From a virus (taxonomy: Duplodnaviria > Caudoviricetes): a stretch of DNA of 50,764 bases. The position numbers and the translations under genes are program-made. Numbering within the stretch: the stretch's first letter is position 1; the number at the start of each line of letters is the position of its first letter. Positions 16,240 to 40,000 of this stretch are shown here, piece after piece. The notes below the pieces were generated by a model. That model did not search any database, was not told the DNA's origin, and saw only the letters and a program-made list of their open reading frames with translations. The stretch is from positions 1 to 50,764 of IMG/VR virus record IMGVR_UViG_3300049737_000544; one strand, given 5' to 3'.

Positions 16240-16647
16240 CTAAGAAAGGTTATCCTCTTTCTTTATAAAATCTAGAGTATCGAACCAATTTTCTTTCATT
16301 GATACCTCTATTGATTGATTATCCTCAAGCATTCCATAGAATTTCATGAGAATCTCTAGAGCCTTAACCCTAGAGCCAGAAGTATGTCCATTTACTTTAC
16401 CAAGTGCTTCATCTTTTAGCTGCTGAATGATCGCATCATGGTCGTTTAGGTTCCTTTCTTTGGATTCTGCAGTCTCTTTTGCCAACATTTTCTGTACTTC
16501 ATCATCTTTCATCAATCTGTAACCTTGTGAATAAGCTGATCTAGCAGAATAACCAACTCTTTTGGCGGCTTCTGTAGCGTTTCTTGTCACCATAAAATGC
16601 TGCACAAATTCTTCTTTTCTTTGTTTTACGGATTTATTTTTAATCAT
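16240..16647 (-). CDS. terS: terminase small subunit
   Basis: NATEAAKRVGYS HTH; RVKALEIL; upstream of terL. Confidence 0.9.
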   Translation of the reverse strand: MIKNKSVKQRKEEFVQHFMVTRNATEAAKRVGYSARSAYSQGYRLMKDDEVQKMLAKETAESKERNLNDHDAIIQQLKDEALGKVNGHTSGSRVKALEILMKFYGMLEDNQSIEVSMKENWFDTLDFIKKEDNLS

Positions 16648-16653
16648 AGTATT

Positions 16654-17157
16654 TTATTCGTTATGTTCAGCAATAAGTTTACACCAATCTATCAATTCAT
16701 TTAAGTCTAGAGTGTACTTCATCATGTTAATTGCTAGGCATACCAGAGCAATGTTTTTTGGCTCATAACCAACATCATTTTTTACTCTATCAATGCTTAT
16801 ATTAGTTAAGTGCATTCCTGTTCCATCTTTCACAAAAGTCATAGGCAATCCGCTATATTTACACAGCCCTTTTTGCTTATCGTAAACAGCATATAAGTCT
16901 TCTTTTGTGATTGTGAATCCATGTGTTTTCTTTCTCTTATGTGAGAGTTGATTGTATAGGTTTGATATATAGGAATACGGAGATCGGCTCATGTTTTTTC
17001 TTTTCCCGAAATCACGGCACTTGCGGCATATATTACTTCTATAGCCTTTGGACATTTCGAACCTTTCAACCTTTTTTTCTTTCCCGCATTTCACGCAGGA
17101 TTTATATTCTTCTTTAGGTCCAGTCAAACGGGAATTTGTCTTTGATTGTAATTTCAA
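16654..17157 (-). CDS. Zn-finger HNH-like endonuclease
   Basis: CxxC..CxxC; C.YSGLPM, SIDR...GY...NI.LVC..INMMK; true start uncertain. Confidence 0.7.
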   Translation of the reverse strand: MKLQSKTNSRLTGPKEEYKSCVKCGKEKKVERFEMSKGYRSNICRKCRDFGKRKNMSRSPYSYISNLYNQLSHKRKKTHGFTITKEDLYAVYDKQKGLCKYSGLPMTFVKDGTGMHLTNISIDRVKNDVGYEPKNIALVCLAINMMKYTLDLNELIDWCKLIAEHNE

Positions 17158-17521
17158 ACTCTTCCTCCTCTTTTAATATATCTAAGAACTTTTTCATTGC
17201 TTTCTTGCTATTAGCTATTGCGGGTCTCCCCTTCATTATTTTTTCCCCGATTAAAACGCAGCCCTCAGAATCCTTTTCTGGAAAGTTTCCAGCATGGAAA
17301 AGAATATAAGTTCTATTGGGTACATTGGAGACTATATAAGTATTACCAAACTTAGGTGAGAGGTATTTTTTACAGGTGTATGTATTACAGGGAATGCAGC
17401 TGACATTTTTTTTATTCCCCCGAAAAGGACGTTCCGCTGTATAGAATATTTCTCCGTCTATTGTGAGTTTTCCTAAAGTTGCTTCAGGATGATAAGCGAA
17501 CCTTAAAAGGGTGGCTTTCAT
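17114..17521 (-). CDS. DUF5675-like putative endolysin
   Basis: TLGKL..SCIP..VPNRTYILFHAGN..DSEGCVLIG; start moved to ATG 17521 to avoid overlap. Confidence 0.7.
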   Translation of the reverse strand: MKATLLRFAYHPEATLGKLTIDGEIFYTAERPFRGNKKNVSCIPCNTYTCKKYLSPKFGNTYIVSNVPNRTYILFHAGNFPEKDSEGCVLIGEKIMKGRPAIANSKKAMKKFLDILKEEEEFEITIKDKFPFDWT

Positions 17522-17525
17522 TCTC

Positions 17526-17783
17526 TTATCTAAAAAATAAAGCCAAGGTCGCAACGGCTGCGGCAATAAGAGCCCAAGCAACTCTTTCAATCCAACCAAC
17601 ATAAACTGTATTTTTTTGCTGTTGTTGTTCAAGAGTTCTCAATCTCCTTTCATGGTCTGATAAATCGTCTTTTTGATTTATCATCCTTTCTTCCAATCTG
17701 GGTAATATTTGAGACAACTTATGAACCTCATTCATTTTTTCTTCGAGGTTATTTAATCGCATCTCTATTTCTTTTGTTTCCAT
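17526..17783 (-). CDS. coiled-coil protein with C-terminal TM helix (XhlA/holin-like)
   Basis: DHERRLRTLE then hydrophobic tail; upstream of putative endolysin. Confidence 0.65.
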   Translation of the reverse strand: METKEIEMRLNNLEEKMNEVHKLSQILPRLEERMINQKDDLSDHERRLRTLEQQQQKNTVYVGWIERVAWALIAAAVATLALFFR

Positions 17784-17932
17784 TGTTAGTAAGGTATGCA
17801 GAGAAGATACAACACAAATAAAAGCCTTTCAAGCAATGAATTGTTTGTAATTAAAGTTATAAGAAATATTCTTTTTATGAAAACTTAATCTTAAAAAACA
17901 CATAAAAATTTCATCTTTTTTGAATTTTTTTC

Positions 17933-17962
17933 TTGACAGCCTCTATTTTTAATTGATAAGGT
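17933..17962 (+). promoter_or_regulatory. sigma70-type early promoter
   Basis: TTGACA, 18 bp, TGn-TAAGGT; AT-rich upstream tract. Confidence 0.7.
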
Positions 17963-18017
17963 TCGCATCATGTTATTACAAACAAAACACAACAAACGCA
18001 GAAATGCAGGAGAAAAT

Positions 18018-18335
18018 ATGAAAAATTGTAAAATAACAAAACTAAGCCATAACTTGATTTCCTATCGAGGTTTTTATTTCGGAGTGAATTACATAGTTAA
18101 GTCTGGTGGAAGGGGTTCTGTAAATGGAATGGAATATTATGGCATGAATGCAGGTATGAAAAGACATTTCTGGACTAGGGAGGAATTGAAGAGATGTGTA
18201 GACAGAAGGATTGATAGTGCAATGAAAGTTTATTGTGAGTCTTACGGCTGGGACACTGAGGACAATCCACTCTTAGCAGAAAGATTAGCTGAATTGGATT
18301 CTGCAAAAAATAACTCAAACAAGGAGGTTTCGTAA
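18018..18335 (+). CDS. early hypothetical protein
   Basis: RBS AGGAG before ATG 18018 (preferred over 17970). Confidence 0.75.
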   Translation: MKNCKITKLSHNLISYRGFYFGVNYIVKSGGRGSVNGMEYYGMNAGMKRHFWTREELKRCVDRRIDSAMKVYCESYGWDTEDNPLLAERLAELDSAKNNSNKEVS

Positions 18336-18336
18336 T

Positions 18337-19089
18337 ATGAAAGATGTAATTTACAGACATGATTTTTCAATGGATGAAGATCATCGGGACTTACAGTGGA
18401 GTTTGAAAGATGCGGAAGCGACACTTTGGGACTATAAAGTTTCAATAACTGAAGCTGGAGACAAAAAAGGCTTGAAAGATACAGTTTATTTCCAAAAGCT
18501 TTTGAAACGAGTTCATGCAGATTATGAGCACTCTATAAAAGCCCTTCACGAAGCTTTTTTATTTCATGCAAGTAGAGTTAATGCAGCTGAATTAAAAGAC
18601 CTTGTAAGCCTTTATGAGGTATCAGTAGACGAGACTGAAAAATATTCAGACTTGGAATTTGCCTATGAATATTATTTTTCAAGTAGTGAAGATAAATTCC
18701 AGCACGAATATAACCCTGCTGCTGCAATAGAATCCCACGAAATCTTTTTGAAGAGTTTCAACAAAAGATTCACTTTGGAAGGAATTGACAAGATTTTCTA
18801 CGAAATTGAAGGAGATCAAGACTCAAACTATATTTTTCTGCTTGAAGAAATAAAAACTTGTAAGAGATATGTATGTGTTGGGGGCACTAATCTGAAATCT
18901 ATAGTTACTGAAGGACTTTATGGTAAAAGCATGATTGAACTACAAGGTGAAGCCTTAATGAGTTGGTTAGACTTTTGTGAAGCAGCTGGAACGAATCGTT
19001 TTAAAACTTCTCTTTGGGATATTCAAATAACATTAGAAAAATATAAAAAAGTTATGGAGGATATGGAAAGCACTTCTGACGAGTCTTAA
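18337..19089 (+). CDS. acidic early hypothetical protein
   Basis: 250-aa ORF, RBS AGGAGG. Confidence 0.8.
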   Translation: MKDVIYRHDFSMDEDHRDLQWSLKDAEATLWDYKVSITEAGDKKGLKDTVYFQKLLKRVHADYEHSIKALHEAFLFHASRVNAAELKDLVSLYEVSVDETEKYSDLEFAYEYYFSSSEDKFQHEYNPAAAIESHEIFLKSFNKRFTLEGIDKIFYEIEGDQDSNYIFLLEEIKTCKRYVCVGGTNLKSIVTEGLYGKSMIELQGEALMSWLDFCEAAGTNRFKTSLWDIQITLEKYKKVMEDMESTSDES

Positions 19090-19123
19090 TGAGACGAAAC
19101 TTCCCTTCGGGGAAGTCAAGTGC
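19070..19123 (+). ncRNA. type I hammerhead ribozyme HHR1 (predicted cleavage after GUC 19117)
   Basis: stem I GCACTT/AAGTGC; CTGACGA; stem II GTCT/AGAC; GAAA; stem III ACTTCCC-TTCG-GGGAAGT; C17. Confidence 0.93.
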
Positions 19124-19166
19124 GGAACATTGGGTTCCAAACAAAAAACTTTCATACGGAGAAAAT

Positions 19167-20204
19167 ATGAAAAAAGTTAGAAAAAAACAAATCGAAGTTA
19201 TCCAAGAAAAATTGGTTGCTTTGATGGAGAAGGAAGGAGCAAGTTGGTCCAAAATGTGGGTCCAAACTATGGCACCTTTCAATATTAAATCTAAAAAAGC
19301 TTATCGAGGAATGAATAATTTCTGGTTAGCAAATTGTCAGATTGACTGGGACCGCAATGCGGAAATAGAAGAAGGCTTGGAAAAAGGTACACTTGACCTA
19401 GATGAAGATGGAAACATTCTCGAATCACAAGGAGAATATGAAAATACTTCACCTGTCTGGGGCACCTTCAAACAATGGAATGAACTTGGACATAAAATCA
19501 AAAAAGGTTCCAAGGCTCAGAAAGTTGTATTTGCTTCCAAGCTTGAAAAGAAAATGTCTTGGCTCACTGAAAGACAAAAGGCAAATGTAAAAGCAGGTGG
19601 CAATATGCCTACTTACTTTGCTTGGAAAGAGTTCAGTGTATTCAATGCAGTTCAGATTGAAGGCTTTGATTCAGATAAAATTGAAAAGCTTTGCGGCAAT
19701 TCTAAATTCACGAAGGAACTAGACTCTGAAAAAGTCGAATCCCTTAGAGAATTTATTAAAAATACTGGAGCCACGATTTTATACAATGAAACAAATCCTT
19801 TTTCATCTGTTGATGGGGCTTATTTTTCCCCAAGCAAGGATTATATTGGAATGCCTTTGCAATCAAAATTCAATGATGATATTGGCTTCTTTGGAACTCT
19901 CTTGCATGAACTGGTTCATTGGACAGGGCACAAAGACAGGCTTGACAGAGATGTTCAGCAGGGCAGCAGCAAAGAGGACTATGCCAAGGAGGAACTTGTT
20001 GCGGAGATTGGTTCAGCTATCCTTTGTCAATTGCTAGGCATTGAGGCATCAATCAGAGCAAACCATGCACAGTATCTTAACCACTGGATTAAATCCATTA
20101 AGGAAGATTCTAAGGCTATGGTAAAGGCTTTCTCTCAAGCTACTAAGGCGGTTGATTATCTATTCAGCTTACAAGAAGAAATGAAGAAAGAGGAGGCTGC
20201 GTAA
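19167..20204 (+). CDS. ardC: ArdC-like protein (ssDNA-binding domain + zincin metallopeptidase)
   Basis: YRGMN, WGTFKQW..G..IKKGSK, VFNAVQ, LLHELVHWTGH, YAKEELVAEIGSA; start moved to ATG 19167 after GGAG. Confidence 0.88.
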   Translation: MKKVRKKQIEVIQEKLVALMEKEGASWSKMWVQTMAPFNIKSKKAYRGMNNFWLANCQIDWDRNAEIEEGLEKGTLDLDEDGNILESQGEYENTSPVWGTFKQWNELGHKIKKGSKAQKVVFASKLEKKMSWLTERQKANVKAGGNMPTYFAWKEFSVFNAVQIEGFDSDKIEKLCGNSKFTKELDSEKVESLREFIKNTGATILYNETNPFSSVDGAYFSPSKDYIGMPLQSKFNDDIGFFGTLLHELVHWTGHKDRLDRDVQQGSSKEDYAKEELVAEIGSAILCQLLGIEASIRANHAQYLNHWIKSIKEDSKAMVKAFSQATKAVDYLFSLQEEMKKEEAA

Positions 20205-20208
20205 TAGA

Positions 20209-20276
20209 GCACTACTGAAGAGACTTTATGAGTCGAAACCTGTTTTTTTCTTCCCCCGAAAAAGCAGGTCTAGTGC
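20209..20276 (+). ncRNA. type I hammerhead ribozyme HHR2 (predicted cleavage after GUC 20270)
   Basis: stem I GCACTA/TAGTGC; CTGAAGA; stem II GACT/AGTC; GAAA; 12-bp stem III ACCTGTTTTTTT/GAAAAAGCAGGT; C17. Confidence 0.93.
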
Positions 20277-20322
20277 GGGAAATAATTCCCAAACATAATT
20301 GCAGAAATGCAGGAGAAAAAAT

Positions 20323-20556
20323 ATGAGCAGAAATATAACAGACATTATGGACTCAAAACTTACTTATGTATCACCAAAAACTGATATACAAATGGATTCT
20401 GAGGGTCTTAAAAGGGTTAGCGATCAATGGTTATTTGATGAATTAGAGTCAAGTGCAATGATTGCTAATAGATTCAAATATGTTCAATCTGACATTATTA
20501 ATATTTTGTTGGAATTAAAAAGACGAAACTTAATAAAATTTCAGGAGGTGTCTTAA
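20323..20556 (+). CDS. early hypothetical protein
   Basis: RBS AGGAG before ATG 20323. Confidence 0.7.
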   Translation: MSRNITDIMDSKLTYVSPKTDIQMDSEGLKRVSDQWLFDELESSAMIANRFKYVQSDIINILLELKRRNLIKFQEVS

Positions 20557-20822
20557 TGTCTGGAGCACACAGTCACGGAGTTTGCCCTGAATGCAACAGT
20601 CAAAAAGCAGACTCATTCTGGTGTAGCGAAAATGGTAACAAGCTTTCATGCGATAAATGCGGCTATGATTCTGGTTGGGAAAAAAGCATACTTGATAAAA
20701 CAGAAAACTATCTTAGAAAGCTATCTCATGCTGAATTAGTTTTTATACAAGAGTTTGTTTTTGATCTGATTGAATACAAATTTGAAAAAGAAAAAAAGGA
20801 GGTAACACAAAAGTCTTACTGA
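20556..20822 (+). CDS. small Zn-ribbon protein
   Basis: CPEC..CDKC; RBS AGGAGGT. Confidence 0.7.
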   Translation: MSGAHSHGVCPECNSQKADSFWCSENGNKLSCDKCGYDSGWEKSILDKTENYLRKLSHAELVFIQEFVFDLIEYKFEKEKKEVTQKSY

Positions 20823-20883
20823 GGAGGATTTAATATCCGAAAACTCAGGCAATTATGTTTCGATTTTGCCTGAGTTCTAAGAC
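20813..20883 (+). ncRNA. type I hammerhead ribozyme HHR3 (predicted cleavage after UUC 20877)
   Basis: stem I GTCTTA/TAAGAC; CTGAGGA; stem II GGAT/ATCC; GAAA; 11-bp stem III AACTCAGGCAA/TTGCCTGAGTT; C17. Confidence 0.93.
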
Positions 20884-20916
20884 AAACTAAACGCTTGAAA
20901 TATAGCAGGAGAAAAT

Positions 20917-21246
20917 ATGTCAATAACAGAAAATAATATCAAGCTAGAAGGTCAAGGCTTCCTTCCGCATGATACAAAATACTACAGAGCCTATTTTGTA
21001 AAAGACATTAATTTTATTTTTAGTAAAGATAAATTAATGTTTATGGGAAAAAGTATCACTATAAATGGTGCATTAACTGATTATCAAAACAGTTTTTGTT
21101 TTTTTACTGATGAAGGGATTCCAGCTTCTCATGTAACACAGGCTAAGAAAGACCTTGAAGGATGGATTAGCAATCCAGACAACAAAGACTTTGAAGAAAA
21201 TGTCGAGAAGATATTAAGAAAAGAAAAACTTTGGAAGGAGGCATAA
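20917..21246 (+). CDS. early hypothetical protein
   Basis: AGGAGAAAAT-ATG leader. Confidence 0.75.
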   Translation: MSITENNIKLEGQGFLPHDTKYYRAYFVKDINFIFSKDKLMFMGKSITINGALTDYQNSFCFFTDEGIPASHVTQAKKDLEGWISNPDNKDFEENVEKILRKEKLWKEA

Positions 21247-21608
21247 TGAAAAAATATATTAGGAAATTTTCATTTCAAGAATGCACCATTCTACAAATGT
21301 TAGTTGAATACGCATACGCAAAGGAAGTAGATAATCTTTTGCTGACTTATTGGAATCCATATCAAGTAAATGAAATTGCTTTTTGGAAAGATATAAAATT
21401 TGCTGAAGAAATTTGCCATGACTTTTATAATTGGGTAAATACTTCAACAGCAAACGAACCGAAATATAATCCAGAAAGAGATAGTTTTGACCCTTTAAAA
21501 GTTAAAGAAGGCAGGTCCGAACTTATAGAGCAATTGGATGATTTTGTAGATCAGTATCAATTAAATATTAAGTATCAAGAAAGGAGGAATACAAATGCAC
21601 ATACCTAA
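21246..21608 (+). CDS. early hypothetical protein
   Basis: AGGAGG RBS; TAATG coupling at 21246. Confidence 0.7.
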   Translation: MKKYIRKFSFQECTILQMLVEYAYAKEVDNLLLTYWNPYQVNEIAFWKDIKFAEEICHDFYNWVNTSTANEPKYNPERDSFDPLKVKEGRSELIEQLDDFVDQYQLNIKYQERRNTNAHT

Positions 21609-21918
21609 TACAAAAAGGAGTCAAATTTTTTCAAGGAAAGATAATATTGACAGACAAATAAAATATTTAGATGAACAGTTAGAAAAAATTTTCAAGCAAA
21701 CTGAAGATTTAATTGCTGACGGAAAAGAGCTTGATAAATATCTTGAAAGTGGCTGGGAGGAACAACATACTGAGGAGCATTTATTATCCGAAAGTCTTAA
21801 CTTAGAAGTTTCGATCTGGGCTACACAAAGATATTTAATTTCAGATTTTTCTGATTCTATTATCACAGCACGAGAAAAACTTAAAGCTTCGGAGGATAAA
21901 AATATCAGACGGGTATAA
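21595..21918 (+). CDS. early coiled-coil hypothetical protein
   Basis: AGGAGG RBS; last gene before terminator. Confidence 0.7.
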   Translation: MHIPNTKRSQIFSRKDNIDRQIKYLDEQLEKIFKQTEDLIADGKELDKYLESGWEEQHTEEHLLSESLNLEVSIWATQRYLISDFSDSIITAREKLKASEDKNIRRV

Positions 21919-21934
21919 ATAAATAATTAATTAT

Positions 21935-21963
21935 AAAAGGGCAGCTTTCGGGCTGCCTTTTTT
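21935..21963 (+). terminator. intrinsic terminator of early operon (possibly bidirectional)
   Basis: AAAA-GGGCAGCT-TTCG-GGCTGCCT-TTTTT. Confidence 0.85.
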
Positions 21964-22014
21964 ATTTGTCAAGACTATTAATTTTTTTTTATATCAGCTA
22001 ACATCACTGGTCCT

Positions 22015-22191
22015 ATGTTAATTAAAGAATCCATAATAAAAGTAGCCAGAACGCTTAAAGAAGGAAAGGAAATTGATATACAGGACAAGAATATACTAGA
22101 AGGTTATCCAGCAGATTTAGATGAGCAAGATATTTTAAAAGCAATGAACGCTATTGATATTGTCTCTGATATTTTACTTGAACTAGAGTAA
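22015..22191 (+). CDS. small acidic hypothetical protein (58 aa)
   Basis: manual translation MLIKESIIKVARTLKEG...ILLELE; weak RBS. Confidence 0.5.
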   Translation: MLIKESIIKVARTLKEGKEIDIQDKNILEGYPADLDEQDILKAMNAIDIVSDILLELE

Positions 22192-22386
22192 GTCTATTTT
22201 TCGTATTGCTTCTTCGTAACTTTTACCTAAAGTTGTCCAATCTGTTTTCTCATCAGGCTTATATAACCAGCCCCTGTGCATAGTATTTTTTCCATGTACA
22301 TTGTGAGGTACCCATTTTATTTTTACCCCGCTGTAACCCTTCTCTCGAAGTTTTAAAGCTATGTTCTCTTTCTTACTCATCTTCAT
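22183..22386 (-). CDS. hypothetical protein
   Basis: ORF track; last gene of minus-strand run. Confidence 0.6.
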   Translation of the reverse strand: MKMSKKENIALKLREKGYSGVKIKWVPHNVHGKNTMHRGWLYKPDEKTDWTTLGKSYEEAIRKIDLL

Positions 22387-22525
22387 TTAATGATTCAATC
22401 CAAAAATCTTCATAAATTATTCTAAATTGTTCTAGTGTTGGTATTTGCACGTTAGGAACTTCCTTCAAACCTTTGATATGAATTTTGTAAGCTTCTAATA
22501 ATTGTTTTTCAGAATATAAAATCAT
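22373..22525 (-). CDS. small hypothetical protein (50 aa)
   Basis: manual translation MILYSEKQLLEAY...IPTLEQFRIIYE; abuts upstream stop. Confidence 0.6.
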   Translation of the reverse strand: MILYSEKQLLEAYKIHIKGLKEVPNVQIPTLEQFRIIYEDFWIESLNEDE

Positions 22526-22717
22526 TTAATGTATTGTCCTGTCTCCCCAAAAATCTTTGGGAGGAACATAAATATCTGTAAGTTCTCCAACAACTTCTAA
22601 ACCATATTCGTCAGCTACCTCTTGAGCCTCACTCATTGAGTGTGCATAAAGAATAGGTCCTTCTTCTGTTTTACCTTTATGAGTATATTCAGTTATATAT
22701 ATTTTCATGCTTTCCAT
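22526..22717 (-). CDS. hypothetical protein
   Basis: KIYITEY..EGP.L.A..VVGEL; packed in operon. Confidence 0.65.
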   Translation of the reverse strand: MESMKIYITEYTHKGKTEEGPILYAHSMSEAQEVADEYGLEVVGELTDIYVPPKDFWGDRTIH

Positions 22718-23016
22718 AAGTCTTTTCTAGCCCAATAATTTGAAGAAAACTTATCATCTTTTGTTAGCTTCCCTGATTTGTTTTTTATTCCTGCTGAACG
22801 AGTAAGATAATTTTTTCTAGCTTCTTTGGAATAGTTGTGCCTGTAATCTTTATGACCATATTTAACTATTTTTATTTCGTCACCCTTTTTTGCCAGAACT
22901 TCTTTTTTATAATCACCTTTACCAGAATATCTTTTGGGTTTATTGAAGCCACTAAATTTTTTTCCCCGATAAACGACACCGCCACTTACTCTTTTTGCCT
23001 CTGAAGCTTTAGCCAT
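22705..23016 (-). CDS. small basic protein (DUF5754/DUF6321-like)
   Basis: IVKYG..ARKNYLTRSAGI..DKFSSNYWARKDLW. Confidence 0.65.
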   Translation of the reverse strand: MAKASEAKRVSGGVVYRGKKFSGFNKPKRYSGKGDYKKEVLAKKGDEIKIVKYGHKDYRHNYSKEARKNYLTRSAGIKNKSGKLTKDDKFSSNYWARKDLWKA

Positions 23017-23267
23017 TATCTATACCTCTTAGTTGTTCTTCTGGCTTTCTTAGTTTGTTTTGAATGTTGCTTTCCCTTTTTTGTATCTGCTCTTTTTTTT
23101 CTAGTAGTTGCAGCATACTCAGCAGCTGACATAGCTTTGATTGCTTTTTTAGGTAAGTATCTTTCACCAGTTGCTTTTTTTCCTTGAGTTGAAGGCTTTC
23201 CAGATTTAGTCCGCCACTCTTGTTTGGTCCAAAGTTTTAAAGATTTTTGTGATTTTTTTAAAGCCAT
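23016..23267 (-). CDS. basic protein, DUF5872-like C-terminal half
   Basis: QKSLK.WTKQEWRTKSG, GERYLPKKA. Confidence 0.7.
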   Translation of the reverse strand: MALKKSQKSLKLWTKQEWRTKSGKPSTQGKKATGERYLPKKAIKAMSAAEYAATTRKKRADTKKGKQHSKQTKKARRTTKRYR

Positions 23268-23348
23268 TATTGATTATGTTTTTTTAATTTTTGTTGTTTT
23301 TTCCTGATCTTTAATTGTTTTTTGATTTCTACTTTTTGATTTTGCTGT

Positions 23349-23561
23349 TTAGCGATAGCCGCCTCCTGCGGCTTTGTACTGTTTGGCTAACATTTGAGCC
23401 TTTCGAGCAGACCATTGACCGCTTCGACCTCCTTTGTTTCCTGATTTTATTTTATTAAAAAGTCTTTTACGCATAGCAGGTTTTGTGTAGTTACCTGCTT
23501 CATTAACTCTGGACTTACTTTTTTTTGCCGTAGTTTTTCTTCTTGGTTTTTTTGCTGCCAT
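23349..23561 (-). CDS. basic protein, DUF5872-like N-terminal half
   Basis: YTKP..KGG..GQWSARKAQ...YK..GGGY. Confidence 0.7.
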   Translation of the reverse strand: MAAKKPRRKTTAKKSKSRVNEAGNYTKPAMRKRLFNKIKSGNKGGRSGQWSARKAQMLAKQYKAAGGGYR

Positions 23562-25021: not shown

Positions 25022-25349
25022 ACCTGCTTCTCTCTGATCTTAAGTTTGCCATTTTGGTTCTCCATTCTTCAAACTCCATATCAGCTGCTTTCATTTTTGC
25101 CTGACAAGAATCATATTCTGATTTAGCCACGGCAACGTCTAGGGAAGCTTTATAATATTCATCTGTAGATTCTGCCTTGGCTTTTTGTGCGTTATAACTT
25201 CTTTCTCCTTCGTCTTTTGCTTTTACTAATTCTATGTAAAATATTTTTTTCAAAACTAATTCTTTTTTAAAAACATTTACTCTAGCTTCTTTTAAAAAAG
25301 GAATAATGTCTCTTATTTGTTGATGAAAGTTTTCTGCTTGATGTTCCAT
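25011..25349 (-). CDS. coiled-coil hypothetical protein
   Basis: C-terminal FEEWRTKMANLR; coupled to dnaB. Confidence 0.7.
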   Translation of the reverse strand: MEHQAENFHQQIRDIIPFLKEARVNVFKKELVLKKIFYIELVKAKDEGERSYNAQKAKAESTDEYYKASLDVAVAKSEYDSCQAKMKAADMEFEEWRTKMANLRSERSRYGA

Positions 25350-26671
25350 TAAATGGGTCCCTCCTCTTCTCTTCTTCCAAACGCCACTTCATCTGGGTCT
25401 AAAAATTTTGAATAAGCACCATTAAAACCAAGTTCAACTTGTCCTGAATCACCTAATCTATTTTTTCTAATAATAATTTCAGCAGTATTATTTGAAAGGG
25501 AATCATAATATTCATCTCTATAAAGCATAATTACCATATCTGCGTCTTGCTCTATAGAACCTGAATCTCTTAAGTCTGAAAGGACTGGTCTCTTATCAGT
25601 CCTTCCCTCTACACCCCTTGATAGTTGAGATAAACTGATGAGAGGACATTGTATGTCTTTAGCCAATCCTTTCAGCAAATTTGATATATAACTTATTGAT
25701 GATGCCCTTGAGTCAGAATTACTAGGAGCCTTATTCGAGGTCATGAGAAGTTGTAAATAATCAACAACAATCAAATCAATATCCATAACAGCCTGTAGCG
25801 TTTTAGTTTTATTTACTAAAGTCTCAATAGTTATTGGAGACCTGTCATAAACAAACATATTTTTTTCTTCAAAAAAACTTTTCATTTTTCTAAATTTATC
25901 CCAGCCATTCAAATCTAAATTACCTGTAAGCAAAGAGTCCATTGAGAGTTCAGCTTGTGCAGATATAATCTTTTTCAAAAGCTGTTCATTAGTCATTTCA
26001 AGGCTGAAGAGTAGAACATTTTTACCTTGCAAAACTGAGTTAGTAGCAATGTTTAATGCAAATGTTGTTTTACCCATTGCTGGTCTACCTGCAATAATAA
26101 CAAGGTCTCCCGATCTAAAACCTTTAATTTTATTATCTAAAGTTTGAAATCCCGTTTTAATTAAATTTTTATTTATTTCATTTGCATTACTTAATTCGTG
26201 TTCTACGCTGTCAAAAATTTGTGATATTTTTTTAGGACTTCCTGTGGCTTTTGTTATTCTATCTCCAATCAAATGTTCATTAATTTTACTTATTTTTTCT
26301 TCAATCTTTGTATCTTGATTTACTATATCTGGAATTCTTTTTGCCAGTGTTAATAATTTTCTGTTGGCTGTGGCATCTTGCATTAATTTTATCCAGCTAG
26401 AAATGTCGTCAAGAATAATTCCTTCTGCTGTTGCCAGTCTTACTTTTTCAAACATTTGTTTATTAAGTAAGTCTTGTAAAGAAATAATATCTATTCCTTG
26501 TTTTTCCAACATAATCTCATAAGTTTTTTGATAAGCTAAAACAGTAAAATCACTTGGCTGCAAACCTTTGTCTTGAGCTTGTATAAAAAATTTATTATCT
26601 AAGATCATAGAGCCTATTACGTTGCCCTCTAGTTCTAAATTTGCTTTCTCATCCAAATAAAGTGTTTTCAT
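25349..26671 (-). CDS. dnaB: replicative DNA helicase
   Basis: AGRPAMGKT, FSLEM, VVDYLQL, LSQLSR, DLRDSGSIEQDAD, KNRLG. Confidence 0.97.
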   Translation of the reverse strand: MKTLYLDEKANLELEGNVIGSMILDNKFFIQAQDKGLQPSDFTVLAYQKTYEIMLEKQGIDIISLQDLLNKQMFEKVRLATAEGIILDDISSWIKLMQDATANRKLLTLAKRIPDIVNQDTKIEEKISKINEHLIGDRITKATGSPKKISQIFDSVEHELSNANEINKNLIKTGFQTLDNKIKGFRSGDLVIIAGRPAMGKTTFALNIATNSVLQGKNVLLFSLEMTNEQLLKKIISAQAELSMDSLLTGNLDLNGWDKFRKMKSFFEEKNMFVYDRSPITIETLVNKTKTLQAVMDIDLIVVDYLQLLMTSNKAPSNSDSRASSISYISNLLKGLAKDIQCPLISLSQLSRGVEGRTDKRPVLSDLRDSGSIEQDADMVIMLYRDEYYDSLSNNTAEIIIRKNRLGDSGQVELGFNGAYSKFLDPDEVAFGRREEEGPI

Positions 26672-34002: not shown

Positions 34003-34015
34003 TTTTAGACCTTCG

Positions 34016-34081
34016 AGCAGGACAGGAACTTTATTCATATTTTCTCCCCTTTTTAAGGTTATGTTTATTAACTGTCCTGCT
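34016..34081 (+). ncRNA. 10-bp stem with large loop antisense to early-gene start sites (candidate sRNA)
   Basis: AGCAGGACAG/CTGTCCTGCT; loop contains TTCATATTTTCTCC. Confidence 0.45.
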
Positions 34082-34082
34082 T

Positions 34083-37000
34083 TCAATTTTCCTTTAATTC
34101 TTCTTCTACATCTTTTTTGGCTTCGTTAAATTCTTGATTGAAATTCTTTTTGACCACTAAAATATCTAATTGAATTTCTTTTTTCTCAGCTTCTAATTCC
34201 ATTTTTTCTTCAAAAGTTTCTGCTACTTGATATTCTAAATTTAATTCTCTTAATTGTTTATTTAACTCTTTAATTTCTTTTGTAGCTGTTTTATATGGTG
34301 TATCAATATCAGACAAACTCTCTCTTGTTTCTTTGTCGCCAACTACACCTAAAGCATCTAGACCCGTGCCTATTCTTTCTTCAAATTCTTCTTCAGTCTC
34401 TGACATTTTTTCTTCATCTAAATCTGTATCAGCAAATTGATTTGATGCTCCTTCAAATTTGAGAAATTCTTGAACATTTCTTTCATAGATTTCACTATCA
34501 ACATAGTCTCTTGGTCCAGCAATAATTCTTCTTAAGCCTAAAATATCAGTTGGAGGTAAAGGGGAGCCTGTAACTAATGCTTCTCCTGCTTGGTAAAATC
34601 TAAAAGAAGTTCTTCCCAGTCCCCCAGTTGCTTCTCCCAAGAAAAATTGCAAAGTTCTAGGGTCTATATCAACGGCTCCTTCATAAAACTGATTACCGCC
34701 AGTTAGATTATTTATAGTTTTAGTAAGTCCTTTTGTAAAGCCTAAAGCTCTTCGAGACTCATTATAGCTTCTTGGCATTGTGTCACCTATTAAGTCTCTA
34801 ACAGATTCAGAAGTTTTAATAGGAGAGCCAAAATGGTCTTTATTTTGCATCCAATTTACAACAGGTTTAGTAACGGAAGGAGCAACAGCTAATGTAAGGG
34901 TTTCACCCAAGTTATCTCTATCTCCAAAACTTAATGGAGCATAATTGTGAAGCAGAGATTCTCCTAGATCAGCTGCTGCTTGTTGAAGAGAAACATTGTA
35001 ATTATCAATATTTTTGCTCAAGGCATATTCTGTTGTTATCCTGCCAATATCGTGAAATAAAGCATAGCCATAAGGTTTTGGTATTCCTAATCCTATAGGT
35101 AATTTTCTTTCACCATCATCTGAAATTACATAATATTTAGAACCTGTACCCCATTTATCAACTGTTATTTTTCCTTTAGATAAATCTATATCTGGGTACA
35201 TAAAAATAAATTTTGTTTGTTTTTCCCAATCAGGAATTTTTTTATACCAATTAACACCATCTTCTTCATCTTCTGCAGCATAAAGAATATTCCACATAGT
35301 TTGTAAAGAGCCAAGAGCTCCTAATGCTGCTACCGCTTTTACTTTTCTAGATGATTTTTCTTTACCTATTAATCCTCTTGCAACATTAACAGAGCCTTGA
35401 ATTGAAGCATTAAAGAACATATACATTGCATTCGCAGTTGGTCCCATAGTTCCCATTCTGTTAAAGTTTATAGTTAAATTTTTAGCTAAGGTAGCTGCCT
35501 TTTCAAAATCTTTTGGAGTGGCAACATCTATGCCGCCTATCATTTCTATATATCCTTCAAAAGCTGTAAATCTTGCAGCGTTTTCTACACCTGAATTAAA
35601 TCTTTCTACTATTGCTAATGAATCTCTTAAAACTTTTTTTGGAGCAGCTTTTATAGAGCCTGAATAAATATCTCTGAGAGTTTGAAATTCTTGAGTCATT
35701 TGTTCTATGTTTTTTTGATCTATATATCCCGTTTCTCCTCCATATTTTTTAAACTGCAACATTTTTGCATTTTTTAAAACAAGTTCTGGTGAAAGGTTGT
35801 ATTTTTCTCCAAGTTTTTTTATTAACTGTATATTAATTTCTGCACCGCTTCGTTGTAACTCAGCCATTTCTTCTTTCATTCCTTTATTAGCAAGTGTTTT
35901 GTTTTTTTCAAATTTAATGAGTAGCTTAGAATTATTTAAAATATTTAAAGAGGTAAAATATTTTTTAGAAATTTCTAAACCTTGTGCTCTACCGCTAGTA
36001 ATTTCTTCTTCAGCTAATAAATTAAAATAAGCTGTTTGCACATCTCTAATAAAATTATTAATCATAAATGCAGGGTCTAAAGATGTGTTTACCATTGATA
36101 AATATCTAGTGGCATATCTAAAGGTTTTCATAAAGTTGCCAGTTATTGTGTTATCAAAATCATCAAAACCTTGAGCTAATCTTTTATCGTACAATTCAAC
36201 ATACTTTTGAACCCCATCTTCTTTAAAACCTACTCTACTTTTACCTTTCGCATCATCCCAAGTAGCATCAACACTTTCTAGTTGCCCTGCATCTTCTATA
36301 ACTAGCCAGAATTGATCGTTTGGAAAAGCCCTTGAAAGGTCAGCCATACTTTTTACTATTACATTTTTTTCACTTTGTATTAGTGCAGATACTGTGTCTA
36401 TAACTGACTGTTGTAAAGGAGAGTCTGCTAAAGATTCTCTTCCTTTTGCTTTTTTAACTATTTGTCCAGAGACAGTCATTTGTGACTTTATAAGATTATT
36501 AGATGTGCCTGATCTTTTTATTTCTCTGCCCGTTTTAGGGTCTATCAAAGTATCTTCTGCAAAACCTTTTAAAGGTACATAATAATTGTACCTTTGATTC
36601 CAATCAGAAATTTTGTCTTGAGTAATAAGACCAGAGTCCGTATATGTTTTTCTCATATATTCGATCATGGGTTTATGAAAGCTTTCATAAGCATTCAAGT
36701 AGGCTTTACCTTTTGCGGTAACACCTGTAGCTACTCCATTTCTATACTCTACTCCATATTTTTCTAAATTTTTAACAGCTTGTTCTGTTGTAATTCCAGA
36801 ACCACTTTCGGCTTTTTTTAATTTATTTTGTAATGTTGTTAATTTTCTTTTTGCATTTATAACATCTTGCTTTGAACCTTTTCCTTCAGCTTCAAGGGTA
36901 AGTAAATCTGCTTCGGCTTCAGCTATGCTTTCTGTAAACTTAGTTGGTAGATATGCGTTTCTTTCAGGTGCGTGTAAGCTATAAACAAAATGGTTGTATT

Positions 37001-40000
37001 TAGTCTCAGTAATAGCATTTAAGGTCAAAAACTTAAGCATTGGCTCATAATAAACATCTGCCAAGTCTCTAAGCAAATCTTTCACCTTACCTTGATAAAT
37101 ATCTGTTTGAGTTGTAATTCTCCAGTCTTTAGCGTCTGGGTCCAAGCCTAATTCTTGTAGTCTTTCAACAATTCCAGCTTCGCCAAACTGCTCAATCATA
37201 CTTTCTTCTAAAGTCCATTGTCTACCAAATCTGTTAGCAACTTTTATATTTATAGCTTCTACAAGGTCTTTATAAAAACCTAATTGAGGTATTGTAAACT
37301 CTCCATTGGGGTCTGGACCTTTTGGCGGAGGAGGAGGTCCTTCTGGCGGTTTCCTAACTTGCCCAGCTTCGATTGCATCAGTCAAAGCGTTTTCTTTATC
37401 AATCTGATCTTGAGTCTTTGTTGGTTCTTTTGCATCTTTTCTTTTAGAACTTATTAACTTTACTGGTCTGTCACCTTTTATATTGACGACAGTTGAAGGA
37501 AAGAAGCCCCATCTTGTAAGTCCGCCATTGCCATCAAACCTAATGTCTCCAGCTCTAATTTCATAAGTATGTAATTTAGATGGAGTCACATCTGGAGGTC
37601 GAAAAAGTCTATCCATAATGTCTCTGTTTTTTTCTTTTCGTAAATCAATAGCACCTGTTTTTTCTATATCTTCTTGTCTTACTCTTTCTCTATTTGCTTT
37701 ATCTACTTCTTCTTGTGTAATTTTGGATTCTGCTACTTCAAACTCTGCATCTTCTTTAGTCAAAGTAACTAAATCTCCATATCTCAACTCTGAAGTAGGT
37801 GCGGCTCGATAAACTGTTAAGATAGCATCGGGGTTGCCTTTAATTTCTCGAAGCTTATTTATTAATTCTGTTTCTTCTTTATATCTGCCGTCATTAAAAT
37901 ATTTTAAATTTTCGTAATTTTCTCCCGCATCAAAAGAAAAAACAGAGTCTCCTCTTGCGGTAATTTCTTGTGTAGCTTCTTGATTTAAATCGTGTGCTGG
38001 GGGTCCGTATTGTGCGGGGACAAAATCTGAGGCATGACCCGAAGATTCATCTCTGTCAGGAGTTAGATTTTCAGACCTGTTAGCTCCTGTACCTTCAGAA
38101 ACGCTTTGTTCGCCTGTAATCTCTCTAGATCGTTCTCCCTCTCTAGTTCCTGTAACTTGCCCGTCTCTGGATTCTGTTGCATCTGCACTATTATCTTCTC
38201 CCACTCTTTCACTTTCCTGCTGTTCTGCAAAGCTTCTGTTAGTGTTGAGGTAAGACTGGTTGATTCTGTAGATTTTAAAATCTGGCTGGGAACTATCGTA
38301 CCCAAACGCATTTCGTAATCCGACAGTAACTTCGTTAAAGGTGTTGAGACTGATTGCATTTTCTATATCCTCTATTAATTTTGTAGTTCTTGGTGCATTT
38401 AATTTAAAAAACTCAGAATTAGTATATTTCAATGAAAAAACTTGTGCAAACATTTCAGAAGCTAAGAACTGGGGAAAGTTTGATTCTTCATAAGTTGTTT
38501 TGGGAACTCGTAAAGATTTCATTCCAAAGTTTTTATAATATATTTCTACGTCACCTATTGCACTTTCAATTTCTTCTGTAGAAATTATCTCTCCATTTTT
38601 TATTTTTTCCCTTACTGCGGCAACTGTGTAAGCATTATCCGCATGAACAAAAAGACTATTCATTGGATAAGCTAGTAACCCGCCTAATTTTTTGTTCTCC
38701 ATTTTTGCATTGAAGACAGCTTGATCTTCGGACATTCCCCTGCCTAACCTCAAAGTTTCCATTTGTGTTTGAAAGTTAGAGTCTCGATAAAGATTGTATA
38801 TTTCATTAAAAACTTCTCCTCCAGTTTTAAAAGAAAAATCTTGAAGTTTTTGATCTCCAGCATTAAACCTAACATTTTCTTTTTTAAAATCAGGAAAAGC
38901 AAAAAGGGGAGAATTAAAAGCTAAAGAAATACCAGAGCCATCAGTGTTTTGATTGTAAGTAAAGTCTATGTGGTGTGCTATTTCATGTAAAAAAGTTTGA
39001 GCTGCATTATAATTTAAAAAATTTCTATCTTGCTCAGTATTAAAATATTGTTGATCTAGCGTTATAGATGCACTACTTTCATAGTATTCACCACGAATAA
39101 ATTCGTCAAGATCATTTCTAAGTATCTTAATAGAATTAACCCCTGTTAATGCTTTTTCGGGCAGTCCAAGTTGTAAGGAAATATCTAGAATTTCAGCCAA
39201 TCTAACATCTTCTGCTTCTGTCGGACTTCTATATCTGCCAACAACTCTTAAATTTTGTCTTATGAATTCTGGCTCAACAGTTTTGTCTTTAGTAATTTCT
39301 GGCTCTGGTAATTCTTTACCTTTTCCAATATCAATAATTCTTTTAATATCCTCCGCAGAAATATCATACAAATTCATCTTTTCCATAGTTTCAAGAGAAG
39401 TGCTAAAACTTAAACCTTCTCCTTTTTCAGATTCAGTTGTTTTGAATTCACTAATTGTTAAAAAGCCTTCTTTTTTCTCTGCTGCTCTAATTAAAAAATT
39501 TGTAATAAAACTATTTTTAATTTTATTTATTTGCTCTTCCGAATGATTTACTACAGGCACATCTTCCTCACGAAAATCAGGAGCTAATACAGTGCCTATC
39601 GGTCTTTTAAATTCATCTGTATCTGGAAACTCATCTCTTGTTATATCTTTTGATGCTTTTGATGTATCAGGTGTTGTTAAATTTGTAGGTGAAAAATAAT
39701 TTACAAATTTATTTAAAGTCTCTAAATCATTTTGTAAATTTTCTTTTACGCTATCTTTTGATGTTGGAATTCTTTCTTCAATGTTAGTTGCAAAGTCTTT
39801 TACTTTTTGGGTAAAAGAATCTGTGTCTAATATTTCAGTTGCAGACACACCCATAATTTTTAAAACATTTTTATTCGTTTTCAAAATATCTTCAAAGTCT
39901 ACTTCCATTTCTTCTGAAAGCAGATCATTGAGTTCAGAAACAAGAACTTTTTCTTCAGCAGAGAGTTCTGGAATTTGTGTATCAGTTTTTAAAATGTTTT

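What the first reader, a model, noticed from the sequence alone, without database searches (positions are those of the whole stretch)
19070..20883. Ribozyme-punctuated early operon: three intact hammerheads at gene boundaries
Seen: three complete type I hammerheads on the mRNA strand, each with CUGANGA, GAAA, an NUH site and fully paired stems I-III. Their stem sequences differ, so structure rather than sequence is conserved. All lie between one promoter (17933) and one terminator (21935). Known: hammerheads self-cleave leaving 5'-OH and 2',3'-cyclic phosphate ends, and have been reported in bacterial and phage sequences with largely unresolved roles. Inference: the early transcript cuts itself into four mRNAs (to 19117, 19118-20270 ardC, 20271-20877, 20878-end). 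This would be a protein-free analogue of RNase III processing of T7 early mRNA, and 5'-OH ends may resist RNase E-type decay.
Basis: partly seen in the sequence, partly recalled or inferred. Interest (0 to 1): 0.92.

Follow-up and report, generated by a model that had tools for sequence, protein, structure and literature searches.

The report
Hammerhead ribozymes between phage genes
Three well-formed hammerhead self-cutting RNA motifs sit between genes of one operon in a marine phage, but phages were reported to carry such ribozyme clusters in 2011, so this is a solid example of a known arrangement rather than a new one.

Summary
Three complete type I hammerheads lie on the mRNA strand at 19070-19123, 20209-20276 and 20813-20883. 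Chance gives about 0.01 such motifs per shuffled window. All three fold as hammerheads, alone and with their flanks. ArdC-encoding relatives keep hammerheads on both sides of ArdC, with compensatory stem changes.

A model built here scores the three at 66.5, 63.1 and 51.4 bits.

The reading of one transcript cut into four mRNAs is plausible, but cleavage is not shown. It is also not new. Perreault et al. 2011 (PMC3088659) described clustered hammerheads flanking single genes in prophages, including a triple set around the anti-restriction gene ardA, and saw cleavage in vitro and in E. coli. This scan has noted similar operons on other DNA many times.

- The subfamily has a fixed geometry.
- Upstream stop codons often lie inside the ribozyme.
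- A one-gene cassette gain or loss has its breakpoints in the hammerhead-plus-leader repeat.

Verdict: real, a new member of a known kind, modest interest.

The parts
17932..17985 (+). Conserved promoter-like block: TTGACA at 17933-17938, then about 18 nt, then a TG-extended weak -10 (TAAGGT), followed by the start of the leader
   Evidence: The stretch from CTTGACAG to TTACAAAC is identical in the window and in L059, L058 and L056. L008 differs by one base. The surrounding DNA is only 76-87% identical in L058, L056 and L008. The consensus scan did not list it.
18018..18335 (+). First cistron, 105 aa from the ATG that follows GGAG; no family found
   Evidence: ORF; sequence; no Pfam or PHROG match for the longer 17970-18335 frame.
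18337..19089 (+). Second cistron, 250 aa, no family. Its TAA stop (19087-19089) lies in the stem II loop of hammerhead 1
   Evidence: stop position +17 relative to the first base of the hammerhead.
19070..19123 (+). Hammerhead 1, type I; predicted cut after C19117
   Evidence: Descriptor; fold; model R1 66.5 bits; orthologues with compensatory changes in stems II and III.
19124..19138 (+). 5-bp hairpin directly after stem I. It would sit 7 nt from the new 5'-OH end of the ArdC mRNA
   Evidence: Fold with flanks. A hairpin at this place occurs in 27 of 67 family members.
19167..20204 (+). ArdC-type anti-restriction gene, 345 aa
   Evidence: Pfam ArdcN 2.6e-16 and MPTase-PolyVal 3.3e-39; phrog_7245 anti-restriction protein 1.2e-65.
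20209..20276 (+). Hammerhead 2, type I; predicted cut after C20270
   Evidence: R1 63.1 bits; orthologues in L005-L008.
20277..20290 (+). 5-bp hairpin directly after stem I of hammerhead 2
   Evidence: Fold with flanks.
20323..20556 (+). Cistron of 77 aa, no family
20556..20822 (+). Cistron of 88 aa with Cys pairs, no family. Its TGA stop (20820-20822) is the UGA of the CUGA core of hammerhead 3
   Evidence: stop position +7 (on the identical copy in L005).
20813..20883 (+). Hammerhead 3, type I; predicted cut after C20877
   Evidence: R1 51.4 bits; identical copy in L005/L059.
20917..21918 (+). Three further small cistrons (20917-21246, 21246-21608, 21595-21918), no clear family
21768..21859 (+). 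Decayed hammerhead-like stretch inside ORF 21595-21918. Its core plus stem II region (21770-21793) matches hammerhead 3 at 22 of 24 bases, with a C-C mismatch in stem II and no usable stem I
   Evidence: Pattern match; R1 only 14.4 bits, E 0.057; no hammerhead fold, z -0.22.
21935..21962 (+). Intrinsic terminator-like hairpin with a T run, closing the unit
   Evidence: 12 pairs, loop of 4. A - strand terminator-like site (21957-21940) lies within the same stretch. These are the only two terminator-like sites in 16500-23500.

Best explanation
The + strand island from 17933 to 21962 is one transcription unit of a marine tailed phage. It carries ArdC and seven small genes of unknown function.

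Three cis-acting type I hammerhead ribozymes sit in, or overlap, the junctions after the 2nd, 3rd and 5th cistrons. Each would fold once its 3' stem I strand has been transcribed, then cut after C17 (19117, 20270, 20877). That splits the transcript into four RNAs.

Because the topology is type I, the whole ribozyme stays on the 3' end of the upstream RNA as a compact structure ending in a 2',3'-cyclic phosphate. The downstream RNA starts with a 5'-OH, six nucleotides of stem I, a hairpin (after hammerheads 1 and 2), an A-rich leader, a Shine-Dalgarno sequence and AUG. The likely effect is that each block gets its own stability and translation.

Shown here: the motifs, their folds, their conservation with covariation, and their position between genes. 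Inferred: cleavage in the cell, a single transcript, and the consequences for decay and translation.
For: - Motifs are complete and far beyond chance: (3 matches in 300 shuffles at laxer settings).
- The hammerhead fold is the minimum-energy and centroid structure, with and without flanks.
- Relatives retrieved through the ArdC protein, not through the RNA, keep a hammerhead on each side of ArdC down to 44% protein identity (L005-L008; L009).
- The orthologues of hammerhead 1 change stem III CUUCCC/GGGAAG to CACCCC/GGGGUG and stem II GUCU/AGAC to GUCC/GGAC.
- Across 58 distinct family members, 12 of 15 pairs change on both sides. The covariation score is 0.619, against 0.178 in shuffles and at most 0.097 in slid controls.
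- Context across 71 instances: 68 have a Shine-Dalgarno sequence plus start codon 8-58 nt downstream (median 23), and 68 have an upstream ORF ending from 56 nt before the hammerhead to inside it. All hits within a locus are on one strand.
- Unit boundaries: a conserved promoter-like block, a single terminator and no excess of internal promoter-like sites (15 found against 24.1 +/- 4.9 in shuffles).
- Precedent: comparable triple arrangements cleaved in vitro and in E. coli, one around ardA (PMC3088659, passages). In that paper 14 of 18 consensus hammerheads tested were active.
Against: - No direct evidence of cleavage.
- One contig from an RNA library (run X18, record 16, 18844-19187) spans the first cut site with 70 bases beyond it. 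Uncleaved RNA or contaminating DNA therefore exists there.
- No Rfam hammerhead family reaches its gathering score.
- I found no supported tertiary contact between stems I and II. The loop II to 3'-hairpin pairing is not kept in orthologues. The ribozymes could therefore be slow at cellular Mg2+.
- Part of the covariation set was collected with a descriptor that demands pairing, so its 100% pairing is partly built in.
- Upstream stop codons lie inside or within 4 nt of the ribozyme. Terminating ribosomes should transiently prevent folding.
- Timing ('early') and the single-transcript assumption are untested.
Confidence: 0.7

Rival explanations
1. The ribozymes are active, but what keeps them is their role as junction modules for gene shuffling. 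The repeated hammerhead-plus-leader sequence provides homology at which single-gene cassettes are gained, lost or swapped. RNA cutting merely makes each cassette expressible wherever it lands.
For: - The near-identical relative L059 (95-99% DNA identity) differs from the window by one 488-bp unit of hammerhead plus gene.
- The window's 19066-19169 aligns to both flanking copies in L059 (10394-10497 and 10882-10985), so the breakpoints lie within the 104-nt repeat.
- Further gene replacements begin at the leader or start codon: window 20322/20532 against L059 12138/12884, and homology to L056 and L008 ends at 18004.
- Stem I sequence is unusually conserved between copies.
- A decayed fourth copy sits inside a coding sequence.
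Against: - One clear indel and a few replacements in a handful of relatives do not show that recombination at these repeats is selected rather than incidental.
- Strict conservation of the catalytic core and compensatory stem changes point to selection on RNA catalysis.
- The two roles do not exclude each other.
Confidence: 0.15
2. Cleavage is gated by translation. Because the upstream stop codon lies in or next to the ribozyme, a terminating ribosome unfolds it. Cutting would then happen only on RNA whose upstream cistron is not being translated, or only after ribosome release.
For: - 38 of 68 upstream stop codons overlap the hammerhead: 8 at +7 (the UGA of the CUGA core), 19 at +17 (the stem II loop), 6 at -2 (overlapping the first base of stem I) and 5 elsewhere inside. 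The other 30 end up to 4 nt before it, apart from two further upstream.
- In the window, hammerhead 1 holds the stop in loop II and hammerhead 3 holds it in the core.
- 41 of 58 members have a stop triplet at +17.
Against: - Tight packing of genes is normal in phages.
- The core UGA is invariant for catalysis anyway, and loop II begins with U-R-A for unknown reasons, so stops there may be used opportunistically.
- ORFs that end before the hammerhead are spread evenly over the three frames.
- A three-frame stop design is not general: 23 of 58.
- There is no functional data.
Confidence: 0.1
3. The elements are inactive or nearly so in the cell. They would be minimal hammerheads without a tertiary clamp that act mainly as stable intercistronic hairpins or decay barriers, or are relics.
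For: No tertiary contact identified. No Rfam match at gathering score. An RNA-library contig bridges site 1. One clearly decayed copy exists.
Against: - The core is invariant in 58 of 58 aligned members, while the stems vary with compensation.
- Geometry is fixed: stem I is 6 bp in 58 of 59, the stem II hairpin is 13 nt in 58 of 59, and an unpaired A precedes stem I and a purine follows it in 59 of 59. That suggests a conserved docking arrangement, not decay.
- Plain hairpins would not need CUGANGA, GAAA and UC.
Confidence: 0.05

Closest known systems
Clustered hammerhead ribozymes flanking genes in prophages (Perreault et al. 2011, PLoS Comput Biol, PMC3088659; passages read)
   Same: Several hammerheads lie close together on the mRNA strand and flank single genes or short blocks of phage genes. 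An anti-restriction gene is among those flanked (ardA in Agrobacterium tumefaciens; also downstream of a hammerhead in three Legionella strains). The same hypothesis is proposed there, that long phage transcripts are processed into gene-length mRNAs. Those arrangements cleaved in vitro and in E. coli.
   Different: Here all three are type I. The flanked anti-restriction gene is ArdC, not ArdA. The record is a free marine virus contig rather than a prophage. No Rfam model reaches threshold. I could not see that paper's supplementary alignments (supplements are closed), so I cannot say whether this type I subfamily is already in its data set.
RAGATH-1 hammerhead (Rfam RF03152)
   Same: It is the best, though sub-threshold, Rfam match for hammerheads 1 and 2. 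It is type I with a short stem II and a GUC cut site. Its consensus stem I, ucuua/uaaga, equals the inner five pairs of hammerhead 3.
   Different: Scores are 27.7 and 26.4 bits against a gathering score of 56.3. The extra 5' hairpin of that family does not form here (non-standard pairs marked in the alignment). Hammerhead 3 has no match to it at E up to 10.
Type II hammerheads (Rfam RF02276) in other ArdC-encoding phages
   Same: Arrays of one to three ribozymes lie on the coding strand upstream of ArdC in 8 of the 20 distant ArdC loci scanned (13 matches above gathering score). The gene neighbourhood is the same and presumably so is the role.
   Different: The topology is circularly permuted (stem II open). 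These are GC-rich phages whose ArdC is only 32-34% identical.
HHphage of haloviruses HF1 and HF2 (described in PMC3088659, passage)
   Same: A hammerhead lies a few nucleotides upstream of a start codon in an early polycistronic transcript, and a mapped 5' end lies within three nucleotides of the cut site.
   Different: It is a single, variant-core ribozyme in archaeal viruses, and it was proposed to depend on salt.
RNase III processing of phage T7 early mRNA
   Same: A polycistronic early transcript is cut at intercistronic structures into separate mRNAs whose terminal hairpins affect stability.
   Different: It depends on a host protein and leaves 5'-phosphate and 3'-OH ends. The elements here are self-cutting and would leave 5'-OH and 2',3'-cyclic phosphate ends.

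Membership tests
Hammerhead ribozyme (core definition as used by Perreault et al. 2011) | Core C3 U4 G5 A6 N7 G8 A9, then G12 A13 A14 | tested here: met
   All three carry CUGA(C/A/G)GA and GAAA in register. These columns are invariant in 58 of 58 aligned relatives.
Hammerhead ribozyme (core definition as used by Perreault et al. 2011) | A15.1-U16.1 pair and a cleavage-site nucleotide H17 that is not G | tested here: met
   A-U closes stem III and C17 follows in all three. AU in 58 of 58 and C17 in 59 of 59.
Hammerhead ribozyme (core definition as used by Perreault et al. 2011) | No mispair next to the core (10.1-11.1, 1.1-2.1, 15.1-16.1) and no multiple mispairs or bulges in the stems | tested here: met
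   Uninterrupted stems of 6/5/7, 6/5/12 and 6/4/11 pairs. The same helices appear in the minimum-energy folds.
Hammerhead ribozyme | Three helices supported by covariation | tested here: met
   12 of 15 pairs change on both sides, with score 0.619 against 0.178. Caveat: the set was collected with a pairing descriptor. Independent support comes from orthologues found through the ArdC protein.
Hammerhead ribozyme, type I | Stem I open, stems II and III closed by loops | tested here: met
Hammerhead ribozyme | Tertiary contact between stems I and II (loop-loop or pseudoknot) needed for fast cleavage at cellular Mg2+ | tested here: inconclusive
   Loop II to flank complementarity equals the permuted control (3.36 against 3.37, and 3.69 against 3.71). 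The loop II to 3'-hairpin pairing fits hammerheads 1 and 2 but is lost in their orthologues L007_3903 and L008_1067. Fixed stem lengths and the invariant unpaired A and purine capping stem I hint at a contact I could not define.
Hammerhead ribozyme | Site-specific self-cleavage giving 2',3'-cyclic phosphate and 5'-OH ends | not testable with these tools
   Only assembled contigs of RNA runs were available. No raw ends could be read.
Rfam hammerhead families (RF00163, RF00008, RF02276, RF03152 and others of release 15) | Bit score at or above the family's gathering score | tested here: not met
   0 matches at gathering score in the window, and 0 in 10 related loci that hold 42 descriptor hammerheads. 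The best is 27.7 bits against 56.3. I read this as a gap in the models, because the defining core and pairing features are all met.
Clustered phage hammerheads (arrangement of Perreault et al. 2011) | Two or more hammerheads on the mRNA strand flanking single genes or short gene blocks of a phage | tested here: met
   Three in 1.8 kb, delimiting ArdC alone and a two-gene block. Relatives hold 2-5 per locus.

The most novel reading that the evidence does not exclude
The hammerhead-plus-leader unit is a portable junction with two jobs. As RNA, it cuts each accessory or anti-defence gene free with its own ready-made 5' leader. As DNA, its conserved sequence (fixed stem I, leader, Shine-Dalgarno sequence) is the homology at which single-gene cassettes are inserted, deleted and exchanged between phages. 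This would give phages an integron-like way to reshuffle counter-defence genes without promoters.
Probability: 0.25. Interest if true: 0.55.

Novelty: new member of a known kind. Interest (0 to 1): 0.3.

Why it matters
The biological role of bacterial and phage hammerheads is still listed as unresolved (PMC6765202). This locus is a clean, compact test case. It has three ribozymes, one promoter-like block, one terminator and a recognisable anti-restriction gene cut out as a single-gene unit. Natural variants in relatives already carry compensatory changes.

There are two practical points. First, current Rfam models miss this type I phage subfamily entirely at their thresholds, so ribozyme censuses of viral metagenomes that rely on them will undercount. 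Second, ArdC is flanked by hammerheads of two different topologies in unrelated phages. Together with the published ardA case, this makes anti-restriction genes a sensible place to test what ribozyme flanking does for expression.

Tried and rejected
**RNA evidence.** I laid the four RNA-library runs that hold part of the stretch (X16-X19; X16 and X17 are one sample) on 17900-22000.
- All were assembled contigs at depths of about 3-14.
- Coverage was patchy, and gaps occur at the three sites as well as at many other places.
- No verdict on cleavage is possible.

**Loop-loop contact between loop II and the hairpin after stem I.**
- It fits hammerhead 1 (UAAUG with CAUUG) and hammerhead 2 (UUAU with AUAA).
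- The hairpin subset scores above permuted pairings (2.78 against 2.46, 0 of 1000). However, that subset is dominated by repeated orthologues.
- The orthologues of hammerhead 1 in L007 and L008 changed the hairpin loop without a matching change in loop II.
- Over all 67 distinct members, complementarity to either flank equals the permuted control.
- Only 27 of 67 have such a hairpin.
- Rejected as a general feature.

**Three-frame stop design.** Only 23 of 58 members have stops in all three frames. Rejected.

**Circularisation or re-ligation of the units.**
- Neighbouring hammerheads share an identical stem I in only 20 of 61 adjacent pairs. That count includes three contigs fetched twice.
- The ArdC unit has mismatched ends at the pair next to the core in the window, in L005-L008 and, in the reverse order, in L009.
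- Not supported here. Junction reads could not be examined.

**Fourth hammerhead at 21768-21859.** It scores 14.4 bits and does not fold as a hammerhead. I read it as a relic, not a part of the system.

**Bacterial genomes.** The family pattern gave 11 matches in the one-genome-per-species collection.
- None is a hammerhead by model R1 (0 matches at E up to 0.01).
- By eye, none has a stem II.
- This gives no host clue, but it serves as a control showing that the pattern alone is not enough.

**Other searches.**
- A DNA search of the phage GenBank collection with 17900-22000 found nothing.
- Two literature searches for later work on phage hammerheads and anti-restriction or mRNA processing returned only the 2011 paper or nothing.
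They may already contain this subfamily.

**Rows left out.**
- L057_2329 (97 nt, long stem III insert) was omitted from alignment A1, so 58 of 59 unique sequences were aligned.
- In one search, L017 and L027 were not scanned, because of the limits on sources and bases.


Full report
**What the window is.** The window is a complete virus record of 50764 bases, estimated 97% complete, with linear ends. GC content is 33.7%. PHROG matches place these genes:
- tail fibre genes, a portal or adaptor, and a large terminase subunit on the - strand up to 16107;
- a DnaB-like helicase at 25349-26671;
- a RecE-like exonuclease;
- an internal virion protein;
- a 2479-aa protein of unknown function.

The same DNA occurs in runs labelled as marine or seawater metagenomes from several studies. 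The region in question is a + strand island (17970-21918) between two - strand blocks.

**The observation.** A descriptor written for this check finds exactly three type I hammerheads in the window.
- 19070-19123
- 20209-20276
- 20813-20883

Each has these features:
- CUGANGA, a stem II hairpin, GAAA, and a stem III closed by A-U;
- C at the cleavage site;
- a 6-bp open stem I.

In 300 dinucleotide-preserving shuffles read on both strands, with minimum stems of only 4/3/4 pairs, 3 matches appeared in all. The looser pattern CTGANGA-N8-20-CGAAA occurs 4 times forward and 0 times reverse. The reversed control pattern occurs 1 time forward and 0 times reverse. Each element folds into the hammerhead secondary structure as both minimum-energy and centroid structure, alone and with 20-50 nt of native flank.

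**Rfam.**
- Rfam 15 gives no match at gathering score in the window.
- With permissive thresholds, hammerheads 1 and 2 reach 26.4 and 27.7 bits on RAGATH-1-hammerhead (gathering score 56.3).
- Hammerhead 1 also reaches 23 bits on Hammerhead_3 in a wrong register.
- Hammerhead 3 matches no hammerhead family.
- Ten related loci that hold 42 descriptor hammerheads also give 0 matches at gathering score.
- A covariance model built here from 58 family members (R1) scores the three at 66.5, 63.1 and 51.4 bits. The next window hit scores 14.4 bits. The three were part of the training set.

**Conservation.** Relatives were first retrieved through the ArdC protein, independently of the RNA; this gave 26 loci.
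- The four closest (68-99% ArdC identity, L005-L008) hold 2-5 strict hammerheads each. These include one on each side of ArdC.
- L009 (44% identity) also has one directly before and one directly after ArdC (61.7 and 47.6 bits). Both carry an extra U between A9 and stem II.
- Orthologues of hammerhead 1 show compensatory double changes in stem II (U-A to C-G) and at two pairs of stem III.

A pattern scan of the viral contig collection then found 36 stretches.
- With the ArdC loci and the window, the descriptor found 100 hammerheads in 39 sources. These are 36 distinct records, since three contigs were fetched twice.
- The 100 reduce to 59 unique sequences, with up to 5 per locus.
- One pattern locus, L034, has none.
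- On an alignment of 58 of the 59 (L057_2329 left out), all core positions are invariant and 12 of 15 scored pairs change on both sides.
- The covariation score is 0.619, against 0.178 in shuffles and at most 0.097 when partners are slid.
- This set was gathered with a descriptor that requires pairing, so the 100% pairing figure is partly built in. The orthologue comparison does not have that weakness.

**Context.** Of 71 distinct instances, 68 have a Shine-Dalgarno sequence and start codon 8-58 nt after the ribozyme (median 23). Also 68 have an upstream ORF of at least 50 codons ending between 56 nt before the ribozyme and inside it. Within each locus all hammerheads are on one strand.

In the window:
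- ArdC (Pfam ArdcN and MPTase-PolyVal; PHROG anti-restriction protein) is cut out as a single-gene unit between hammerheads 1 and 2.
- A two-gene block lies between hammerheads 2 and 3.
- Two cistrons precede hammerhead 1, and three follow hammerhead 3.
- The unit begins at a TTGACA-containing block. That block is identical in three relatives and differs by one base in a fourth, although three of those four have flanks only 76-87% identical.
- The unit ends at the only terminator-like site in 16500-23500.
- Internal promoter-like sites are not enriched: 15 found against 24.1 +/- 4.9 in shuffles.

**Mechanism.** The best reading is cis cleavage that splits one transcript into four RNAs.

In a type I hammerhead the whole ribozyme stays with the upstream product. 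That product would end in a compact three-way junction with a cyclic phosphate.

The downstream product would begin with a 5'-OH, six nucleotides of stem I and an A-rich leader. After hammerheads 1 and 2 the leader includes a 5-bp hairpin.

That such ends alter decay is my recollection of the RNase E and RNase J literature. The direction of the effect depends on the host, which is unknown.

Cleavage itself is inferred. One RNA-library contig spans site 1.

**What is known.** Perreault et al. 2011 (PMC3088659, passages read) reported the following:
- This implies processing of long phage transcripts into operon-length or gene-length mRNAs.
- Three such arrangements gave the expected products during in vitro transcription.
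- The Agrobacterium triple set flanks ardA and cleaves in E. coli.
- ardA follows a hammerhead in three Legionella strains.

A 2019 review still lists the purpose as undefined (PMC6765202). My two further searches found no later paper on hammerheads with anti-restriction genes or phage mRNA processing in the held library. This scan's own index holds 1540 notes in at least 1121 genomes that contain all the search words 'hammerhead ribozyme phage operon', and seven of the eight shown describe hammerheads in phage DNA. The finding is therefore a new member of a known kind.

1. **Fixed geometry of the subfamily.**
   - Stem I is 6 bp in 58 of 59 unique members.
   - The stem II hairpin is 13 nt in 58 of 59, and its loop begins with U in 58 of 59.
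   - An unpaired A precedes stem I in 59 of 59.
   - A purine follows stem I in 59 of 59.
   - None of these features was required by the descriptor.
2. **Stop codons.** Upstream stop codons overlap the ribozyme in 38 of 68 cases, chiefly the core UGA (+7) and the stem II loop (+17). In the window this holds for hammerheads 3 and 1 respectively.
3. **Cassette gain or loss.** The near-identical relative L059 carries one extra unit of hammerhead plus gene (488 bp). Its boundaries fall in the 104-nt hammerhead-plus-leader repeat. Other gene replacements start at the leader.
4. **Distant ArdC phages.** They carry Rfam type II hammerheads upstream of ArdC: 13 matches in 8 of 20 loci scanned. At least 13 of the 26 ArdC loci therefore have hammerheads nearby. 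Eleven loci had none at the thresholds used: L010-L015, L021, L025, L026, L028 and L029. Two, L017 and L027, were not scanned with Rfam.
5. **Bacterial genomes.** The family pattern found 11 matches in the one-genome-per-species bacterial collection, and none is a hammerhead.

**Rejected ideas.** The following are set out under Tried and rejected:
- a loop II to 3'-hairpin kissing contact;
- a three-frame stop design;
- circularisation of the units;
- a functional fourth hammerhead.

**Verdict.** Interest 0.3.

Noticed in passing
window 21768-21859: Decayed hammerhead-like stretch read in frame inside ORF 21595-21918. Its core plus stem II region (21770-21793) is 22 of 24 identical to hammerhead 3, with a C-C mismatch in stem II and no stem I. 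Probably a relic of a former cassette junction.
   Followed up: partly
window 17999-18013, 20299-20314, 20895-20912; also L007, L008, L035, L045, L064 leaders: A small hairpin abuts the Shine-Dalgarno sequence of many cistrons and co-varies between copies: UGCA-GAAA-UGCA, UGCC-UUCG-GGCA, UGCC-CUAG-GGCA, GCC-GCAA-GGC, each followed by (A)GGAG (sequences printed). Its function is unknown. It might set ribosome access or protect the leader.
   Followed up: no
window 34034-34047 (- strand), within hairpin 34015-34082: The 14-base Shine-Dalgarno-plus-start motif of the operon (18009-18022, 19158-19171) recurs exactly on the - strand, inside a strong hairpin just after the 2479-aa gene. Four matches occur in the window against 0.02 expected. 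On the - strand it could equally be a ribosome-binding site in front of an 11-codon frame. Undecided.
   Followed up: partly
L009 2610-2662 and 3602-3667: Both ArdC-flanking hammerheads of this 44%-identity relative carry an extra U between A9 and stem II (CUGAUGA-U-stem). That is why the strict descriptor missed them.
   Followed up: partly
L016, L018, L019, L020, L022, L023, L024, L030 (upstream of ArdC at about 4001): GC-rich phages with a distant ArdC hold one to three Rfam type II hammerheads on the coding strand in the 2 kb before ArdC. This association of ArdC with ribozymes looks independent of the type I family.
   Followed up: partly
window 18337-19169 compared with L059 10394-10985: A near-identical relative has an extra cassette of hammerhead plus a 136-aa gene. 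The window looks like the product of recombination between two hammerhead-plus-leader repeats, or the relative like an insertion at one.
   Followed up: partly
window 20556-20822: An 88-aa protein with two Cys pairs (CPEC and CDKC in the translation), probably a zinc ribbon. No Pfam or PHROG family.
   Followed up: no
window 34083-41522 (- strand): A 2479-aa ORF matching only PHROGs of unknown function that are 2800-3900 aa long. A giant virion or ejected protein of unknown role.
   Followed up: no
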